In this document: positions 85 through 45,785 of the stretch, piece by piece
Layout of the letters: each line of letters starts with the position of its first letter
Numbering within the stretch: the first letter of the stretch is position 1
From: Nanobdellota archaeon
GTDB taxonomy: Archaea > Nanobdellota > Nanobdellia > Pacearchaeales > GW2011-AR1
Assembly (NCBI GenBank): GCA_038045945.1
Contig: JBBSXC010000001.1
Span: 52,592-116,591, forward strand
Direction: 5' to 3'
Length of the DNA: 64,000 bases
Notes under the pieces: generated by a model
What the model was told of the DNA's origin: nothing
The model's input: the letters and a program-made list of their open reading frames with translations, nothing else
Databases searched by the model: none
Program-made: the position numbers and the translations under genes

Positions 85-648
85 TTACTTTTTGTTTATT
101 CCGTAAAGCATTTTAGTGTATCCAGAATTATCAATTGATCCTAGACCCTCACCAATCATCGATATTACTTCTTTAATCAATTTTTTCGCCCCCATTATTT
201 CTTTTCTGGCGTGGCATAAGTATTCTATTTCCATCCAGTACCCTATATTGCTAACTTTGTTTATTTCTATGTGCAGCTTGTTATTCTTTTTGTAAGTGTA
301 AACTTCGCTTATTTTTTTCTTGTGTATCCATTCTTTGAACCCTAAGTCTTTTTGCAGTTCTAAGAAGAATTTTACGTCGCTTTTATGGTTTAGCACTAGT
401 TCGAATTCTTCTTTTACAACTACTTCCTTATCTGATAGGTTATCAGACTTTTTTTTGAAGTTTACAACATACTGGTTTTTTACTTTTCTTATCCTGAAGG
501 ACTTTTTTGGGTATCCTTTTATGTGTAATGCGAAATAATCATCATTTTTTGTTTGTTTTTCTTTAAATGTCGCTATTTTTGCTACTTCTTTTTTTATTTT
601 TTTGTAGTCTAAAATTTTTATTTTTGATTCTACTTCGTACCATGACAT
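85..648 (-). CDS. CYTH-domain protein (class IV adenylate cyclase / triphosphate tunnel metalloenzyme-like)
   Basis: N-terminal YEVExKxKILD (ExExK-like motif), central FRIRK, C-terminal MEIEYL; size 187 aa fits CyaB/CYTH. Confidence 0.5.
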   Translation of the reverse strand: MSWYEVESKIKILDYKKIKKEVAKIATFKEKQTKNDDYFALHIKGYPKKSFRIRKVKNQYVVNFKKKSDNLSDKEVVVKEEFELVLNHKSDVKFFLELQKDLGFKEWIHKKKISEVYTYKKNNKLHIEINKVSNIGYWMEIEYLCHARKEIMGAKKLIKEVISMIGEGLGSIDNSGYTKMLYGINKK

Positions 649-41314: not shown

Positions 41315-41833
41315 ATGGATTCTAAACAAGCTGATTCTTTTTTGGGTTTTACTTATTTAAGTCTTGATGCTTTGCAACAATTCTTAAGTGTTGATATTCC
41401 AAAGGCGAGGGATCCTTCTGTTCGTTTTCCTTCTTTAAGGCTTGATGATATAAGAGTTGTTGGTGTTGGCTCTTCTCATGATGGAACTAAGGCAGTTAGA
41501 GCTACTATTAGGGATTATTTTAGTTCTAGGAACGGAGATGTTTCTGGTAAGATAGTTTATGGCAAGGTTTTAGCTACTATGTCTGATGATCATAAAGGGG
41601 TTGTTGAGGCTGTAAGGTTTAGGCTCGATAGAGAAATACCTTTGATTAATCCTAGAAGTGGTGGTAGGCGTTGTAATTTTGCTCCTGAAACTAGTATTAG
41701 TCCTTGTAATACGAAAGTTTTAGCTCTTCATAATAAGGATAATTTTAGGTTGATGTTTGGTGCTGGTACTCTTAGTTTTTCTCAGGATTATTTTATTTCT
41801 GAGAAAGGTCTTGATCTTATGTATTCTTTCTAA
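41315..41833 (+). CDS. hypothetical protein
   Basis: 172 aa. Confidence 0.4.
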   Translation: MDSKQADSFLGFTYLSLDALQQFLSVDIPKARDPSVRFPSLRLDDIRVVGVGSSHDGTKAVRATIRDYFSSRNGDVSGKIVYGKVLATMSDDHKGVVEAVRFRLDREIPLINPRSGGRRCNFAPETSISPCNTKVLALHNKDNFRLMFGAGTLSFSQDYFISEKGLDLMYSF

Positions 41834-41845
41834 AAAAAAAGTTTT

Positions 41846-43882
41846 TTAGTGGTATTCGTTTCTTGCTTTGAATGAGTCTATGAATTTGCTGTTGTCGTCT
41901 CTGTTTACTACGCTGTTTAGTTCGTATGCTTCTGTGTCTCCTTTAACTATCTTTTTGACTTTTGTTGCTGATGCTACTCTTCTTTGCATTTGTTGTGATA
42001 GTAATACTTCGCTTGTTGCTCCGTCTGCTAATTTTTTTGCTAGGCTTAGTGTTTGTCCTAGGCTTGTGAATTTTAGTTTTTTTGTTTGTTTGTCTATTTC
42101 TACTACTAGGTCTCCGTGGTTTATTCCTATTCCGAATTCTATTTTGTTTGCTGGGTTTGATTTTGAGTTGTGTAGTGTTAGTACGGATTTTATTTCTTGT
42201 GCTATTATTAGGCTTGTGTTTTCTGTTTTGTATGTTTTCGTTGCGCTTGGTGCTAGTATTCCTATGATGAATTCTTCTGCTTGGTATACTGATCCTTTAA
42301 CTTTTGTTATTTGTGCTATTATTGTTTCTAGTGCTGTTTTGTAGTAGTCTTGTTTTTCTATTTTTTGTTTGTTTTTTATTTTTATTGCTATTATTGAGCA
42401 TGGTTCTTTAACTCCCCTTATTACTAGTGAGTGTTCTGCTTCTTTTGGTGTTACTCTTCCTATTGTTACGTCTGAGCTTCTTATTGTGCTTATGTTTGGT
42501 GCTTCGTAGTTTGTGTTTCCGTACTTGTTTCCTTTTACAAGCCTACTTAATGCTGCCAGTGAAGGCATGTAGTGTATGAATTTTTGTTTTCCTAAGCCTT
42601 TTGATACTCCGAATATGAATAGTCCTAATACGCCTAGTATGAATAGCCATACTAGCGAGTATCTTGTTATTATTGATGTGCTGTCTGCTACGTCGATAAG
42701 TCTTACTGCATTACCTGTTAGTGATATTCCTGATGCTGAGAATTTTCCTACCCCATCTGTTGCTGATACGTCGTAACTTCCGTCTGGTGCTTGTAAACTG
42801 TATATTGCGCTTTCACCAACTCCTAATTCTAAGTCTATTATTTCTTTGTTTGGTCCTATTCCTACCTCAACGCTTTTTTTGTATGGTACGTTTCCCGTAT
42901 TTGCTATTTTTAGTGTTGTGTTGACTATTTCGAATGTTACTTTTTCTACTTCTGGTACGTAGAAGAATCGTTTGTTGCTTAGTGATTCTACTTTTACTAC
43001 TATTGTTCTGTATCCTGGTGTTTCGTTTATTGGTAAATCAATCATTATGTCTTCTCCCGAGTTTACTATTTGGTCGTTTATTTTTGTGTCTTCTCCGTTT
43101 AGTAATGAGTATCTTGCTTGTGTTGTTATTTCTTTATCTGTTTGGTCGTATACTAATATTTTGAATTTGTATGGTGTTCCTGGTGTTGCTTCTTGGTTTT
43201 CTATTGATACTTCTATTTTTCTTGCTTCTTGTTTTACGAATATGTTGCTTTCTAGGTTTGCGTCGTTTATTATGTTTCCTTGTTTGTCTTTTTCGTAAAC
43301 TTTTGTTTTTATTGAGTATGTTCCTGATGCCATGTTTTGTGGTAGGCTGAAGTTGTATACTGCTACTCCGTTAATTACTGGTAAGTCTAGTGATATTCCT
43401 GCTTCTGCGAATGTTACTGATGCGAATCCGTTTATTGCTTTTCCGTTTGCTTTTGTTGCGCTTATTCTTATGATTATGCTTTCGCTAGGCCCTACTTCTT
43501 TTTTGTCTATTTCTGCGTATGCGTCGGTGTGGTCGCTTATTGTGAATGTTTGGCTTTGAACTGATGATGTTCCGTATGTTGCTGCTATGAAGCATGATCC
43601 TTTTAGTGGTCCTATGAATGAGTTTGATAAAGTGAATGATTTTCTTACAATTGTTGATGATAATATGTCGTGTGTTATTACTACTTTGTTTTGTTCGCAG
43701 TTAAGACTCATATCGAAGAAGTTGTCTGATAAGCTGTCCACTGTTGCTGCTAGTGTTATTTCGTCGCCTAAGTTGTAAATTGCTGCTGGTTGTTCTAAGA
43801 ATACTTCAGCTCGCACAGCGCTAACTGTTAGTAATAATGTTACTGCTAAAACTATTAATAATACTGTTGATGACTTCACCAT
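41846..43882 (-). CDS. receptor-like surface protein: signal peptide, large extracellular region, single TM, cytoplasmic degenerate class III nucleotidyl-cyclase homology domain
   Basis: N-terminal MVKSSTVLLIVLAVTLLLTVSAVRA; TM LVWLFILGVLGLFIFGV; C-terminal FGIGINHGDLVV...LGQTLSLAKKLADGATSEVLLS matches cyclase (R)IGIHTG..VVG...GDTVNLAARLE..G.ILVS, but metal-binding Asp positions are replaced (IIAIKIKN). Confidence 0.55.
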   Translation of the reverse strand: MVKSSTVLLIVLAVTLLLTVSAVRAEVFLEQPAAIYNLGDEITLAATVDSLSDNFFDMSLNCEQNKVVITHDILSSTIVRKSFTLSNSFIGPLKGSCFIAATYGTSSVQSQTFTISDHTDAYAEIDKKEVGPSESIIIRISATKANGKAINGFASVTFAEAGISLDLPVINGVAVYNFSLPQNMASGTYSIKTKVYEKDKQGNIINDANLESNIFVKQEARKIEVSIENQEATPGTPYKFKILVYDQTDKEITTQARYSLLNGEDTKINDQIVNSGEDIMIDLPINETPGYRTIVVKVESLSNKRFFYVPEVEKVTFEIVNTTLKIANTGNVPYKKSVEVGIGPNKEIIDLELGVGESAIYSLQAPDGSYDVSATDGVGKFSASGISLTGNAVRLIDVADSTSIITRYSLVWLFILGVLGLFIFGVSKGLGKQKFIHYMPSLAALSRLVKGNKYGNTNYEAPNISTIRSSDVTIGRVTPKEAEHSLVIRGVKEPCSIIAIKIKNKQKIEKQDYYKTALETIIAQITKVKGSVYQAEEFIIGILAPSATKTYKTENTSLIIAQEIKSVLTLHNSKSNPANKIEFGIGINHGDLVVEIDKQTKKLKFTSLGQTLSLAKKLADGATSEVLLSQQMQRRVASATKVKKIVKGDTEAYELNSVVNRDDNSKFIDSFKARNEYH

Positions 43883-44002
43883 TTTTCTTCTATAGTGTTA
43901 TCGAGCAAATAATGTATATAAATGTTATGAGGAAGAGAAACATACAATAAAGATAGTTATTTATCAGCAATCTCTGCAGACAAAGTTTATATAATTAGGA
44001 TT

Positions 44003-45145
44003 ATGACTGTTTTTATGGTAAAGGGTGAATCAATGAAGGTTACTCCTTATGAAGCAAAAGGGGAAATAGACTATGATCAATTAGTAAAACAGTTCGGTGT
44101 TGAGAGGATTGATCAAGATTTAATGAAGAGGATAGAAAAGAAGGCAGGTGAGCTACATTTCATGCTTCGCAGAGGAGTCTTTTTTGCGCATAGAGACTTA
44201 AAATTTGTACTTGAAGAGTACGATAAGGGAAACAAGTTTTATCTTTACACTGGGAGAGCTCCAAGTGGACCAATACATTTAGGGCATCTACAACCTTGGA
44301 TTTTTACTAAGTGGTTACAGGATACTTTTGGTGTAGAGTTATGGTTTCAATTCCCTGATGAAGAAAAATTTTTGTTTAAACCAGAGATGAGTTTTGAGGA
44401 TGGACAAAAATATCTTAATGATAATATGTTGGACATTATAGCTTTAGGTTTTGATCCTAAAAAGACTCACTTCTTGATAGATACTAAGCATGCAAATGCT
44501 ATGTACAAAGAAGCATGTAAAGTAGCAAAAAAGATTACTTTTAACATGGTAAGGTCATCATTCGGATTTGATGAAAGTGATAATATAGGATTAATATTTT
44601 ACACTAGTATGCAAGCTGTTCCAGCATTTTTGCCTTCGGTAATCGCAAAAAAGAATATTCCTTGTTTGATTCCTCACGCAGTTGACCAAGACGTCCACTT
44701 TAGGTTAACTAGGGATATTTTGCCAAAACTAGGTTATTATAAACCTGCAAGTATTCAATGCGTATTTTTGCCGCCTTTACAGGGGGTTGCTGGAAAGATG
44801 AGTTCATCACAAAGCAGTGAAGCAATACTAACTACTGATACACCAAAGGAAGTTGAGCGTAAGATTAACAGGTACGCTTTTAGTGGGGGAAGAGATACCA
44901 TTGAGGAGCATCGTAAACTTGGAGGAAATCCTGATGTTGATGTTTCTTACCAATATTTGAGGATGCTATTAGAAGATGATGATAAGAAACTAAAAAAGAT
45001 TCATGATGATTATAAGAGTGGAAAGATGACAACAGGCGAATTAAAGAAATATACTATTGATAAAATTAATTCTTTTTTAGCAGTTCATCAAAAGAAGCGC
45101 GAAGAAGCAAAAAAGGTTGTTGACAAATTTATTTGGAAAGAATGA
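44003..45145 (+). CDS. trpS: tryptophanyl-tRNA synthetase, archaeal/eukaryotic type
   Basis: YLYTGRAPSGPIHLGHLQPWIFTKWLQDTFGVELWFQFPDEEKF and AFSGGRDTIEEHRKLGGNPDVDVSYQYL are near-collinear with human WARS catalytic core; KMSSS. Confidence 0.9.
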   Translation: MTVFMVKGESMKVTPYEAKGEIDYDQLVKQFGVERIDQDLMKRIEKKAGELHFMLRRGVFFAHRDLKFVLEEYDKGNKFYLYTGRAPSGPIHLGHLQPWIFTKWLQDTFGVELWFQFPDEEKFLFKPEMSFEDGQKYLNDNMLDIIALGFDPKKTHFLIDTKHANAMYKEACKVAKKITFNMVRSSFGFDESDNIGLIFYTSMQAVPAFLPSVIAKKNIPCLIPHAVDQDVHFRLTRDILPKLGYYKPASIQCVFLPPLQGVAGKMSSSQSSEAILTTDTPKEVERKINRYAFSGGRDTIEEHRKLGGNPDVDVSYQYLRMLLEDDDKKLKKIHDDYKSGKMTTGELKKYTIDKINSFLAVHQKKREEAKKVVDKFIWKE

Positions 45146-45146
45146 A

Positions 45147-45785
45147 TTATTTTTCTTTATAAAAGACGTGTTTGAATTCTTTAGCATTTTTTATTTCATC
45201 AAAAGTTTTTCTTTCCATTAGTTTTGAGCCAGCCCATTTAGGACTAATAGCTAAAGTGTGATAATGAGTTTGTCCAAGATTATAAGAATTGGAATTTTCT
45301 CCTAAGACAGTATCTGCAGCTGTTAAGCATTCTTCCCATGATTTCGAGTCATATCTTTGTGGGTCCATAAGTTTTTTCTTATTAGGATCATTATCGTTAA
45401 AGCATGAGTATTGCCACTCTTTAAGTATAGAATCCTTTATTGTTTCCCCATTCCACTTTTTCCCATCTTTAGCTCTATTAATTGCCGTGTAAGCAATAAC
45501 CCTTTTTTCTTCTCTAGAACAGTTTCTTGCTTCTCCAAAAAGCATTCTAGCAATTATTACTTTATCACTATCATTTTTAAAATCATTAGTGCTATAATCT
45601 ACTTGTTTGGCTTTTTGTTTATCACTTTTTGGTAAATCAAATAATTCTAAGCGTTCTTCTAGTTGCGAGTTATTTGTTATTCCCTTAGGATTTTCTTCAG
45701 TATAAGTTTGGCTTTTATCAAAATAGTATATAAGCGCACTTAGACCTATTATTCCCCCAGCAACTATTTTTTGTCTAGTGTTCAT
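45147..45785 (-). CDS. SleB/CwlJ-like cell-wall (peptidoglycan) hydrolase domain protein, membrane-anchored
   Basis: N-terminal TM; IIARMLFGEARNCSREEKRVIAYTAINRA resembles Hydrolase_2 (SleB) core. Confidence 0.55.
   Translation of the reverse strand: MNTRQKIVAGGIIGLSALIYYFDKSQTYTEENPKGITNNSQLEERLELFDLPKSDKQKAKQVDYSTNDFKNDSDKVIIARMLFGEARNCSREEKRVIAYTAINRAKDGKKWNGETIKDSILKEWQYSCFNDNDPNKKKLMDPQRYDSKSWEECLTAADTVLGENSNSYNLGQTHYHTLAISPKWAGSKLMERKTFDEIKNAKEFKHVFYKEK

What the first reader, a model, noticed from the sequence alone, without database searches (positions are those of the whole stretch)
41846..43882. Receptor-like surface protein ending in a degenerate class III nucleotidyl cyclase domain
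The architecture is signal peptide, then a ~500-aa extracellular region, then one TM helix, then a ~200-aa cytoplasmic domain. That cytoplasmic domain matches the class III adenylyl/guanylyl cyclase core (FGIGINHGDLVV, GQTLSLAKKLAD..SEVLLS) but lacks the two metal-binding aspartates. This looks like a pseudo-cyclase receptor. Class III cyclase domains are rare in archaea. A CYTH (class IV cyclase-like) protein also sits at 85..648.
Basis: partly seen in the sequence, partly recalled or inferred. Interest (0 to 1): 0.55.

Follow-up and report, generated by a model that had tools for sequence, protein, structure and literature searches.

The report
Archaeal surface protein with dead cyclase domain
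This gene encodes a membrane-spanning surface protein, conserved across a large group of tiny symbiotic (DPANN) archaea, whose outside part is four antibody-like domains and whose inside part is a well-conserved relative of the enzymes that make cyclic AMP/GMP but has lost key catalytic residues, so it probably binds something or pairs up rather than making a messenger.

Summary
The ORF (41846..43882, minus strand, 678 aa) is real. Its layout is: signal peptide (1-25), four Ig-like macroglobulin-type domains (26-~400), one TM helix (408-428), a disordered basic linker (429-476), a ~185-aa class III cyclase-homology domain (CHD, 477-660) and a conserved C-terminal helix.

Alone, the sequence misses Pfam's Guanylate_cyc cut-off (16.8-19.8 vs 21.9 bits). 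Homology is nevertheless secure:
- family profile vs guanylyl cyclase Cya2, E=8e-9
- hhalign, 97.7 %, E=1e-11

Catalytic set, in 164 family representatives:
- metal Asp 1 is Lys501 (0 Asp, 3 Glu)
- Asn is Ser613
- Arg is Lys617
- the beta4 Arg is an invariant Gly
- the metal Asp 2 position keeps an acidic residue (Glu537; D/E in 60 %)

So it is most likely a non-catalytic pseudo-cyclase under purifying selection.

The family is large (≥490 clusters at 50 % identity) and almost confined to Pacearchaeota/Woesearchaeota-type DPANN genomes. In 61 of 71 informative loci it sits head-to-head with trpS.

Corrections: the ectodomain is ~380 aa, not ~500, and only one of the two aspartates is clearly lost. 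Function remains inferred.

The parts
43808..43882 (-). Signal peptide, residues 1-25 (cleavage predicted after VRA, before Glu26)
   Evidence: Hydropathy peak at residues 4-24. Ala25/Glu26 are nearly invariant in 20 homologues.
42662..43807 (-). Extracellular region, residues 26-407: four tandem all-beta Ig-like (macroglobulin/MG-type) domains at ~27-116, 118-216, 222-309 and 315-397. Conserved features: Cys62-Cys97 pair and the motifs YNLGD, VYEKDKQG, NTGNVPY, APDGxY, LTGN
42599..42661 (-). Single transmembrane helix, residues 408-428
   Evidence: Hydropathy. Helix 409-429 in the model. It is the most conserved segment, 47 % mean pairwise identity.
42455..42598 (-). Juxtamembrane cytoplasmic linker, residues 429-476: basic, Ser/Thr-rich, variable in length, predicted disordered
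   Evidence: pLDDT <50 at 434-440 and 450-475. 22 % mean identity. Length 31-56 aa over residues 430-476, and 33-73 aa in the slightly wider slice printed per member. Net positive charge.
41903..42454 (-). Degenerate class III cyclase-homology domain, residues 477-660. Key positions: Lys501 (42380-42382) at metal Asp 1; Glu537 (42272-42274) at metal Asp 2; Thr606 at the purine-specifying position; Ser613 (42044-42046) at the transition-state Asn; Lys617 (42032-42034) at the transition-state Arg; Gly584 at the beta4 Arg
   Evidence: for homology and fold. for the residue map and family conservation.
41849..41902 (-). Family-specific C-terminal amphipathic helix, residues 661-678, with near-invariant Phe667, Phe671, Arg674. 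It lies beyond the end of the canonical cyclase domain
   Evidence: Helix 661-676 in the model. F667 in 163/164, F671 in 164/164, R674 in 145/164. hhalign to cyclases ends before it.
43883..44002 (.). 120-bp divergent spacer shared with trpS, holding two back-to-back TATA-like boxes: TTTATA 40 nt before the target ATG, and another 17 nt before ATG 44003 (29 nt before ATG 44015)
   Evidence: Across related loci a TTTAWA box starts exactly 29 nt before the ATG of both genes in the modal case.
44003..45145 (+). Tryptophan-tRNA ligase (trpS), the only strongly conserved neighbour, head-to-head with the target
   Evidence: NF008927, 512.5 bits vs cut-off 478. PF00579. Upstream and divergent in 61 of 80 loci, which is 61 of 71 loci with at least 900 bp of upstream sequence.

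Best explanation
The gene encodes a type I membrane protein that is a lineage-specific, near-universal component of Pacearchaeota/Woesearchaeota-type DPANN archaea.

Outside the cell, a stalk of four macroglobulin-type Ig-like domains is displayed. This is shown by the structure prediction; what it binds is unknown.

Inside the cell, tethered by a flexible basic linker, sits a domain that descends from class III nucleotidyl cyclases and keeps their fold. It has lost the residues needed for two-metal catalysis. I infer that it no longer makes cAMP or cGMP.

Because the domain is as conserved as the rest of the protein, it is a working pseudo-enzyme rather than a relic. The most likely mechanism (inferred) has three steps:
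1. Like all class III domains, it pairs head-to-tail with a second copy.
2. The two interface pockets that were once active sites are now lined by conserved lysines. Lys501 and Lys503 occupy the site of the first metal-binding Asp and the phosphate loop. Lys616 and Lys617 occupy the site of the Asn-x-x-x-Arg helix. This lining would hold an anionic ligand (a nucleotide or polyphosphate) or a partner protein without turning it over.
3. With no rigid helical transducer present, any coupling between outside and inside would work by clustering or dimerisation of the whole molecule on engagement of the ectodomain, not by a piston or rotation through the membrane.
For: Architecture.

Homology and fold:
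- Family profile vs PDB, E=8.2e-9 to Cya2, with other class III cyclases making up nearly all the further matches.
- 12 of 19 members give weak PF00211 hits, and PF00211 is the only family hit by more than 2 members.
- Reverse HMM built from 7 real cyclases, E=1.2e-7.
- hhalign 97.7 %, E=9.8e-12.

Degeneracy across 164 representatives:
- Asp1 position: K121, N16, R9, 0 Asp, 3 Glu.
- Asn position: S44, T37, N23.
- Arg position: K123, R35.
- beta4 Arg position: Gly 164/164.
- The gamma-phosphate Lys lies in a 7-residue deletion.
- The specificity Lys/Glu position is variable.

Constraint: the CHD shows 38 % mean pairwise identity, against 33-45 % for the Ig domains and 22 % for the linker. Many near-invariant family-specific residues exist: G490, K492, K503, N504, P545, T548, N553, K616, F667, F671.

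Distribution: 490 cluster representatives at E<=1e-30. 80 GTDB species genomes, nearly all Pace-/Woese-/Nanoarchaeota, including a complete 0.71 Mb chromosome.

No transducer: the linker is disordered and variable. For comparison, a helical CTE precedes Cya2 and other class III cyclases (PMC5995499).
Against: - No activity or binding was measured.
- The position of the second metal Asp keeps Glu in this protein and D/E in 60 % of the family, often as a residual 'GD' (G536 in 72, D537 in 79 of 164). Asn504 (N150/D5/E3) sits three residues after the lost Asp1. An unconventional metal site therefore cannot be excluded.
- The beta1 alignment rests on one profile-profile alignment plus the secondary-structure register. 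I could not inspect model coordinates.
- 6YII was first described as a non-catalytic 'cyclase-like ATP-binding protein' and later proved to be an active pyrimidine cyclase (PMC11224242). That shows apparent pseudo-cyclases can be enzymes for untested substrates, although that protein keeps both aspartates.
- Dimerisation, the lysine-lined pocket and the clustering mechanism are all inferred.
Confidence: 0.6

Rival explanations
1. It is still an enzyme: a non-canonical nucleotidyl cyclase, or another NTP-using transferase. It would use Glu537 and Asn504 with one metal, or lysine-assisted chemistry, possibly on an unusual substrate. If so it could even be the missing archaeal cNMP synthase.
For: - An acidic residue is retained at the second metal position in 60 % of members, and Asn504 is near-invariant.
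- A basic residue is retained at the transition-state Arg position, and Thr606 matches the purine-contacting Thr of CyaC-type cyclases, which read ...FTAIG....
- The family is under strong purifying selection.
- Precedent: 6YII was reclassified from 'ATP-binding protein' to pyrimidine cyclase (PMC11224242).
- Archaeal cAMP synthases are still unidentified (PMC10249747).
Against: - The first metal Asp is never Asp (0/164) and is basic in 132/164.
- The transition-state Asn is kept in only 23/164. The beta4 Arg is Gly in all. The gamma-phosphate Lys region is deleted.
- The D/N/E/G pattern at position 537 is what a beta-turn position shows without catalytic constraint.
- All characterised class III enzymes, Pycsar cyclases included, keep both aspartates (PMC11224242).
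Confidence: 0.12
2. It is essentially a structural surface or adhesion protein (stalk, cell-cell contact or envelope component). The cytoplasmic cyclase-like domain only serves as an oligomerisation or anchoring plug, with no ligand pocket and no signalling.
For: - The flexible linker argues against conformational signalling.
- No signalling partner is conserved in the neighbourhood.
- DPANN archaea are episymbionts that need attachment proteins (general knowledge; reviews listed).
Against: - A mere plug would not need ~20 near-invariant polar residues concentrated at the former active-site elements (K503, N504, T548-K549-T550, N553, K616, K617).
- The CHD is as conserved as the ectodomain.
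Confidence: 0.2
3. It is the inactive half of a heterodimeric cyclase, pairing with a second, complementary cyclase-homology protein encoded elsewhere, as the C1/C2 halves of mammalian adenylyl cyclase do.
For: - Degenerate halves that complement each other are the rule in eukaryotic class III cyclases. The AC8/AC9 C2 domains lack both Asp.
- The family keeps a basic residue at the Arg position and Thr at one specificity position.
Against: - It lacks essentials of both halves: no Asp1 for the C1 role, and no conserved Asn or specificity Lys for the C2 role.
- There is no other cyclase-homology ORF in the 64 kb window, and none among conserved neighbours in 80 loci.
- Archaea generally lack class III cyclases (PMC1183210).
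Confidence: 0.04
4. The similarity to cyclases is spurious, or reflects only the generic palm/ferredoxin-like fold (GGDEF, polymerase palm), not class III descent.
For: - The single-sequence Pfam score is below the gathering threshold.
- Sequence identity to solved cyclases is only 8-17 %.
Against: - Sequence-profile, reverse-profile, profile-profile and two structural methods all agree.
- Motif-level matches exist: FGIGxNxG with RxGxHxG, FTSxGxxxxxAKK with (Y/F)(D/T)xxGxxVNxAxR, and the helix-capping Asn572.
Confidence: 0.01

Closest known systems
Cya2 guanylyl cyclase of Synechocystis (PDB 2w01), a membrane-anchored CHASE2-TM-CTE-cyclase, and other bacterial homodimeric class III cyclases (CyaB 3r5g, CyaC 1wc0, Rv1625c 4p2f)
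   Same: - Same fold over ~170 residues, and the same overall logic: extracellular domain, membrane anchor, C-terminal cytoplasmic cyclase domain.
- Cya2 also has Gly at the beta4 Arg position.
   Different: - Cya2 keeps both metal Asp, the Asn and the Arg, and is an active enzyme. This family has Lys, Glu/Asp/Asn, Ser/Thr and Lys at those four positions.
- There is no helical cyclase-transducer element before the domain (PMC5995499).
- The ectodomain differs: four MG/Ig domains instead of CHASE2.
- This family has an extra conserved C-terminal helix.
Single-pass receptor-type class III cyclases: mammalian natriuretic-peptide receptor GC-A (9bcv) and trypanosomal GRESAG4 receptor adenylyl cyclases (1fx2/1fx4)
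   Same: - Type I topology: a large extracellular domain, one TM helix and an intracellular cyclase-homology domain.
- These cyclase domains are among the structural hits.
   Different: - Those receptors are catalytically competent and couple through helical or kinase-homology linkers. The roles of those linkers are from my own knowledge.
- Here the catalytic set is degenerate and the linker is disordered.
- The ectodomain folds are unrelated.
Degenerate halves of pseudo-heterodimeric cyclases (C2 of mammalian adenylyl cyclases, beta subunit site of soluble guanylyl cyclase)
   Same: A class III fold in which the metal-binding aspartates are substituted. AC8 C2 reads FASIPGF and TIGSTYM. The resulting non-catalytic pocket is used for regulation, for example forskolin binding (own knowledge).
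   Different: - C2-type domains keep the Lys/Asp/Asn/Arg half-site and complement a C1 partner.
- This family lacks parts of both half-sites, and no partner was found.
Macroglobulin (MG) domain arrays of alpha2-macroglobulin/complement C3-C5/CD109 and bacterial alpha2-macroglobulins
   Different: - There are only four MG-like domains.
- No thioester, bait-region, CUB or receptor-binding domain was detected: Pfam finds only MG2-type and other Ig-like families, and the model shows only four beta-sandwiches.
- It therefore cannot be a protease trap of the alpha2M type. It is fused to a TM helix and a cytoplasmic domain instead.

Membership tests
Class III nucleotidyl cyclase catalytic domain (Pfam PF00211 Guanylate_cyc) | Score at or above Pfam's curated gathering threshold (21.9 bits) | tested here: not met
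   16.8 bits for the full protein, 19.2-19.8 bits for the domain alone, and only profile positions 66-156 of 183 matched. 12 of 19 members give such weak hits, best E=1.7e-4.
Class III nucleotidyl cyclase catalytic domain (superfamily-level homology) | Statistically significant profile-level sequence similarity to bona fide class III cyclases | tested here: met
   Family profile vs PDB: 2w01 at 8.2e-9, 6fht at 1.1e-7, 3mr7 at 5.6e-4. HMM of 7 real cyclases finds the ORF at 1.2e-7. hhalign 97.7 %, E=9.8e-12 over 160 columns.
Class III nucleotidyl cyclase catalytic domain | Characteristic fold (beta-alpha-beta-beta-alpha-beta core plus C-terminal subdomain), closer to cyclases than to other palm domains | tested here: met
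   [not shown]
Class III nucleotidyl cyclase catalytic domain (active enzyme) | Two metal-binding aspartates (end of beta1, FxDIxGFT; beta2-beta3 turn, GD) | tested here: not met
   Asp1 aligns with Lys501; the family has K121, N16, R9, 0 Asp and 3 Glu of 164. Asp2 aligns with Glu537; the family has D79, N37, E19, G18.
Class III nucleotidyl cyclase catalytic domain (active enzyme) | Transition-state Asn-x-x-x-Arg on helix alpha4, and the phosphate-binding Arg (beta4) and Lys (beta7-beta8) | tested here: not met
   Asn aligns with Ser613 (N in only 23/164). Arg aligns with Lys617 (K123/R35, a conservative change). The beta4 Arg aligns with Gly584 (164/164). The Lys of the 'KG' motif falls in a 7-residue deletion.
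Class III nucleotidyl cyclase catalytic domain (active enzyme) | Substrate-specifying pair (Lys + Asp/Thr for ATP; Glu + Cys/Gly for GTP) | tested here: inconclusive
   The first position is Gln534 here and variable in the family (E73, K25, R12...). The second is Thr606 (T87, M51), as in CyaC-type adenylyl cyclases.
Class III nucleotidyl cyclase catalytic domain | Head-to-tail dimer forming interface active sites; cNMP synthesis | not testable with these tools
   No multimer prediction, model coordinates or biochemistry were available.
Receptor-type / membrane-coupled class III cyclases (Cya2, GC-A, Rv1625c-like) | Extracellular or membrane sensor, TM anchor and C-terminal cytoplasmic cyclase domain | tested here: met
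   Signal peptide, ~380-aa ectodomain, one TM helix with positive-inside flank, C-terminal CHD.
Receptor-type / membrane-coupled class III cyclases | Helical linker / cyclase-transducer element (CTE) immediately N-terminal to the catalytic core | tested here: not met
   Residues 430-476 have pLDDT <50 for most of their length, with no helix adjoining the domain. The domain is instead preceded by a short conserved beta-strand, EAEHSLVIKG. The linker shows 22 % identity and variable length. CTE definition from PMC5995499.
GGDEF diguanylate cyclase domain | Better match to GGDEF than to class III cyclases; GG(D/E)EF motif | tested here: not met
   [not shown]
Alpha2-macroglobulin / complement thioester protein family | MG-domain fold | tested here: met
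   [not shown]
Alpha2-macroglobulin / complement thioester protein family | Bait region and thioester (TED) domain, seven or more MG domains | tested here: not met
   The model holds only four beta-sandwich domains in ~380 aa. No helical TED-like segment is present and no Pfam thioester/A2M families were hit.
Class IV adenylyl cyclase / CYTH (for the separate ORF 85..648, minus strand) | NCBIfam TIGR00318 above the curated cut-off | tested here: met
   63.6 bits vs 57.95. PDB hits PH1819/1yem at E=1e-3. Pfam gave no hit. Activity was not tested; archaeal CYTH proteins characterised so far are triphosphatases, not cyclases (PMC10249747, citing Vogt 2021).

The most novel reading that the evidence does not exclude
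The lysine-lined former active site is a metal-independent sensor for a nucleotide or alarmone: ATP/GTP, polyphosphate, or the Ap4A-type products of aminoacyl-tRNA synthetases such as the TrpRS encoded head-to-head with it. This would make the protein a DPANN-specific receptor that links contact with the host cell, through the MG-domain stalk, to the symbiont's energy or translation state. Alternatively, the domain is a mechanistically new cyclase and the long-sought archaeal cNMP synthase.
Probability: 0.1. Interest if true: 0.8.

Novelty: new variant of a known kind. Interest (0 to 1): 0.55.

Why it matters
- Archaea are regarded as essentially lacking class III cyclases (PMC1183210), and no archaeal enzyme that makes, degrades or reads cAMP has been identified (PMC10249747). 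Here a deeply diverged class III cyclase-homology domain turns out to be a conserved, apparently single-purpose component of one of the largest uncultivated archaeal radiations.
- The gene is kept even in a 0.71 Mb genome, where little that is dispensable survives.
- The family is annotated only as 'hypothetical protein' and has no Pfam or NCBIfam model. Giving it a fold, a topology and a residue-level hypothesis turns it into a tractable target.
- It is one of the few candidates for a transmembrane link between the surface of DPANN cells, which live attached to hosts, and their cytoplasm.
- It would also be a clean natural example of a cyclase turned pseudo-enzyme, in which metal-binding aspartates were replaced by lysines.

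Tried and rejected
- NCBIfam on the protein and its domain: no meaningful hit.
- The first Pfam call failed because ORF 85..648 was given on the wrong strand.
- Single-sequence phmmer of the domain vs PDB gave only marginal cyclase hits, E 0.07-0.9. The family profile was needed.
- Downstream convergent gene (41315..41833): compared with the equivalents in three related loci. It is not conserved beyond close relatives and is absent from all 80 GTDB loci, so it was rejected as a partner.
- AlphaFold-DB Foldseek library: unavailable.
It worked with the full-length alignment A1.
- Word-indexed homologue search with the domain profile returned only 3 fragments. It was uninformative about intermediate, catalytically intact relatives.
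- The exhaustive search lists only the best 150 hits, all inside the family. The nearest canonical cyclases (the ~3,200 hits between E 1e-10 and 1e-3) could therefore not be inspected.
- Ectodomain vs PDB by sequence: no hit.
- Search for a shared operator in 35 target-trpS spacers: only TATA-box k-mers are enriched.
- Literature searches for 'pseudo-cyclase' and for DPANN plus adenylate cyclase found nothing describing this family.
- accidentally repeated.
Full report
**1. The observation**

The ORF listing shows one uninterrupted 678-aa ORF at 41846..43882 on the minus strand. The window is AT-rich, about 34 % G+C. The protein is identical to an NCBI entry named 'hypothetical protein AABW73_00675 [Nanoarchaeota archaeon]', so the window comes from a DPANN archaeal MAG.

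A Kyte-Doolittle scan finds only two hydrophobic segments:
- Residues ~4-24, followed by VRA|E. Ala25 and Glu26 are nearly invariant among 20 homologues.
- Residues 408-428, followed by KGLGKQK.

The topology is therefore signal peptide, ~380-aa ectodomain, one TM helix, ~250-aa cytoplasmic part. Both quoted motifs are present.

**2. Is the C-terminal domain a class III cyclase domain?**

On its own the sequence is sub-threshold in Pfam: Guanylate_cyc scores 16.8 bits for the full protein and 19.2-19.8 for the domain, against a cut-off of 21.9, and only profile positions 66-156 of 183 match. NCBIfam finds nothing. phmmer against the PDB gives only marginal cyclase hits.

I collected 20 full-length homologues at 28-67 % identity, aligned them (A1) and cut out the cytoplasmic domain (A2). 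The following tests then agree:
- The A2 profile hits the solved guanylyl cyclase Cya2 (2w01) at E=8.2e-9 and its phytochrome fusion 6fht at 1.1e-7. It also hits 3mr7 at 5.6e-4 and Ma1120 at 8e-3. Apart from weak TMEM106B matches (E≥0.48), everything else listed is a class III cyclase.
- 12 of 19 members individually give weak PF00211 hits, and no other Pfam family is hit by more than two members.
- An HMM built from only seven genuine cyclases (sequences taken) finds this ORF, and nothing else, in the six-frame translation of the window at E=1.2e-7.
- hhalign of 164 family members against those seven cyclases gives 97.7 % probability, E=9.8e-12, over 160 columns.
- AlphaFold2 on A2 gives a confident model, pLDDT 91.6 and pTM 0.84.
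- The top 50 Foldseek matches in the PDB are all class III cyclase catalytic domains, with E down to 2.4e-10 and TM 0.52-0.76.

Homology and fold are therefore established. The GGDEF, generic-palm and chance readings are rejected.

**3. Catalytic residues**

The hhalign map was checked against the beta-strand register of the model and combined with residue counts in 164 cluster representatives.

| Canonical position | This protein | Family (of 164) |
|---|---|---|
| Metal Asp 1 (FxDIxGFT, end of beta1) | Lys501 | K121, N16, R9, S5; 0 Asp, 3 Glu; basic in 132 |
| Gly of GFT | Asn504 | N150, D5, E3 |
| Metal Asp 2 (GD at the beta2-beta3 turn) | Glu537 | D79, N37, E19, G18 |
| Specificity Lys/Glu | Gln534 | E73, K25, R12 and others (variable) |
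| Specificity Asp/Thr | Thr606 | T87, M51 |
| Transition-state Asn | Ser613 | S44, T37, N23 |
| Transition-state Arg | Lys617 | K123, R35 |
| beta4 Arg | Gly584 | G164 (Cya2 also has Gly here) |
| Gamma-phosphate Lys (KG motif) | in a 7-residue deletion | not applicable |

Notes on the table:
- The residue before Asp 2 is G536 in 72 of 164, so a residual 'GD' persists. HMMER's alternative register shifts this position by one residue.
- Thr606 matches the FTAIG motif of CyaC.
- The residue before the transition-state Arg position (616) is K or R in all 164.

No member has a canonical set. The first is uniformly lost and replaced by a cationic residue. The second position often keeps an acidic residue, but its D/N/E/G spectrum is what an unconstrained beta-turn shows. 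The inference is that two-metal catalysis is lost. This is inferred, not shown.

**4. Not a relic**

Mean pairwise identity in A1:

| Region | Mean pairwise identity |
|---|---|
| Four ectodomain domains | 33-45 % |
| TM helix | 47 % |
| Cyclase-like domain | 38 % |
| C-terminal helix | 43 % |
| Linker | 22 % |

The family has its own near-invariant residues: G490, K492, K503, N504, K529, Y533, P545, T548-K549-T550, N553, N572, G584, G590, F605, K616, K617, K641, K644, F667, F671 and R674. Many of these are lysines sitting on the elements that form the nucleotide-phosphate site in real cyclases, namely the end of beta1 with the start of alpha1, and helix alpha4.

That pattern (acidic metal ligands replaced by lysines, and the Arg kept as Lys) is the basis for proposing a metal-free anion- or nucleotide-binding pocket at a presumed dimer interface. 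This is inference, because I could not obtain model coordinates or a multimer prediction.

**5. The rest of the protein**

The full-length model (pLDDT 84.4) shows:
- Four consecutive all-beta domains at ~27-116, 118-216, 222-309 and 315-397.
- A TM helix at 409-429.
- A low-confidence linker, with pLDDT <50 at 434-440 and 450-475.
- The cyclase-like domain, preceded by a short conserved strand (EAEHSLVIKG) and followed by a helix at 661-676.

The linker varies in length: 31-56 aa over residues 430-476, and 33-73 aa in the slightly wider slice printed per member. It is basic and unstructured. There is no helical cyclase-transducer element of the kind that precedes Cya2 and many other class III cyclases (PMC5995499). 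Rigid conformational signalling through the membrane is therefore unlikely. Clustering or dimerisation is the more plausible mode of coupling (inference).

**6. Distribution and context**

An exhaustive HMM search of 1.84 billion cluster representatives finds 490 proteins at E<=1e-30, 637 at <=1e-10 and 3,830 at <=1e-3. The best 150 are nearly all 630-800 aa with the domain at the C-terminus. The shorter ones are probably fragments, though I did not check this.

In GTDB species representatives the gene was found in at least 80 genomes:
- Nearly all are labelled Pacearchaeota, Woesearchaeota, Nanoarchaeota or Nanoarchaeia. One is a complete 0.71 Mb chromosome, CP061211.1.
- A few are labelled only 'archaeon'.
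- One is Diapherotrites.
- One is a 3.7 kb contig binned as a Gastranaerophilales bacterium, which is probably a binning error.

Neighbourhood findings:
- The only strongly conserved neighbour is tryptophan-tRNA ligase (NF008927, 512 bits). It lies immediately upstream and divergent in 61 of 80 loci. That is 61 of 71 loci with at least 900 bp of upstream sequence. The target proteins in these loci are only 26-44 % identical to the window protein, mostly 27-34 %.
- Other window neighbours occur in 0-2 of the 80 loci. These are the Obg-like GTPase, the M20 peptidase, the Hydrolase_2 protein and GatD.
- Partial synteny exists with three other genes. One looks like an archaeal ThrRS (30 loci). One is an unknown 280-aa membrane protein (32 loci). 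One looks like a PP-loop ATPase (23 loci). The ThrRS and PP-loop calls rest only on my reading of one example sequence each.
- The spacer is 71-108 bp in 27 of 34 measured loci. A TTTAWA box starts exactly 29 nt before the ATG of both genes in the modal case. Only TATA-like k-mers are enriched. This points to two back-to-back leaderless promoters with no detectable shared operator.
- The window holds no second cyclase-homology ORF.

**7. Literature**

- A 2023 review states that no archaeal protein that makes, degrades or binds cAMP has been identified, and that archaeal CYTH 'class IV cyclases' are triphosphatases (PMC10249747).
- Nothing describing this family turned up.
- A caution: PDB 6YII was deposited as a 'class III adenylyl cyclase-like ATP-binding protein' and is now treated as the active clade A pyrimidine cyclase PaPycC. 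It retains both metal aspartates (PMC11224242).

**8. Verdict**

It is a new, large, DPANN-restricted family with a new architecture: MG-type Ig domains x4, a TM helix, a flexible linker, a pseudo-cyclase domain and a C-terminal helix. It works most like a single-pass receptor-type cyclase whose output domain has become a binding or dimerisation module. It fails the membership tests for an active class III cyclase and for CTE-coupled receptor cyclases.

Function (ligand, partner, signalling versus adhesion) remains inferred. The decisive experiments are listed separately.

Noticed in passing
window 43883..45145 and loci L007-L086: The target gene and trpS form a head-to-head pair, conserved in 61 of 71 informative genomes although the target proteins are only ~26-44 % identical to the window protein (mostly 27-34 %). 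The spacer is usually 71-108 bp, with a TTTAWA box starting exactly 29 nt before each ATG. That fits back-to-back leaderless promoters. No other motif is enriched.
   Followed up: yes
window 44003..44017: The trpS TATA-like box starts 17 nt before the first ATG (44003) but 29 nt before the in-frame ATG at 44015 (Met5), which is the modal spacing in related loci. The true trpS start is probably 44015.
   Followed up: partly
window 85..648 (minus strand): This 187-aa ORF passes the NCBIfam class IV adenylate cyclase/CYTH model (TIGR00318, 63.6 vs 57.95 bits) and resembles Pyrococcus PH1819. Pfam gave no hit. According to the literature, archaeal CYTH proteins tested so far are triphosphatases, so the 'cyclase' name should not be taken at face value.
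   Followed up: partly
window 45147..45785 (minus strand): A 212-aa protein with a Pfam Hydrolase_2 (SleB-type cell-wall hydrolase) domain (35.9 bits, above cut-off) and an N-terminal hydrophobic segment. This is a peptidoglycan-directed enzyme in an archaeon that has no murein, so it could act on a bacterial host or prey. A Hydrolase_2 gene also lies just upstream of the family member in locus L005/L006, and a phage-lysozyme-family gene lies near it in L003.
   Followed up: no
L036 (JAQUYY010000207.1, 3.7 kb): A contig binned as 'Candidatus Gastranaerophilales bacterium' carries a full-length member of this otherwise archaeal family. This is most likely a binning error rather than horizontal transfer.
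   Followed up: no
window 42224..42226 (residue 553): The window protein has Thr at a position where 158 of 164 family representatives have Asn, within the family-specific P-x-x-T-K-T-F-K-N-E motif after beta3. It is an unexplained deviation at one of the most conserved sites.
   Followed up: no
loci L007-L086, downstream of the family gene: An unannotated ~280-aa predicted membrane protein lies downstream and convergent in 32 of 80 loci. A gene that looks like a PP-loop ATPase (tRNA thiolation-like, judged by eye) lies downstream in 23. Neither is present next to the gene in this window.
   Followed up: partly
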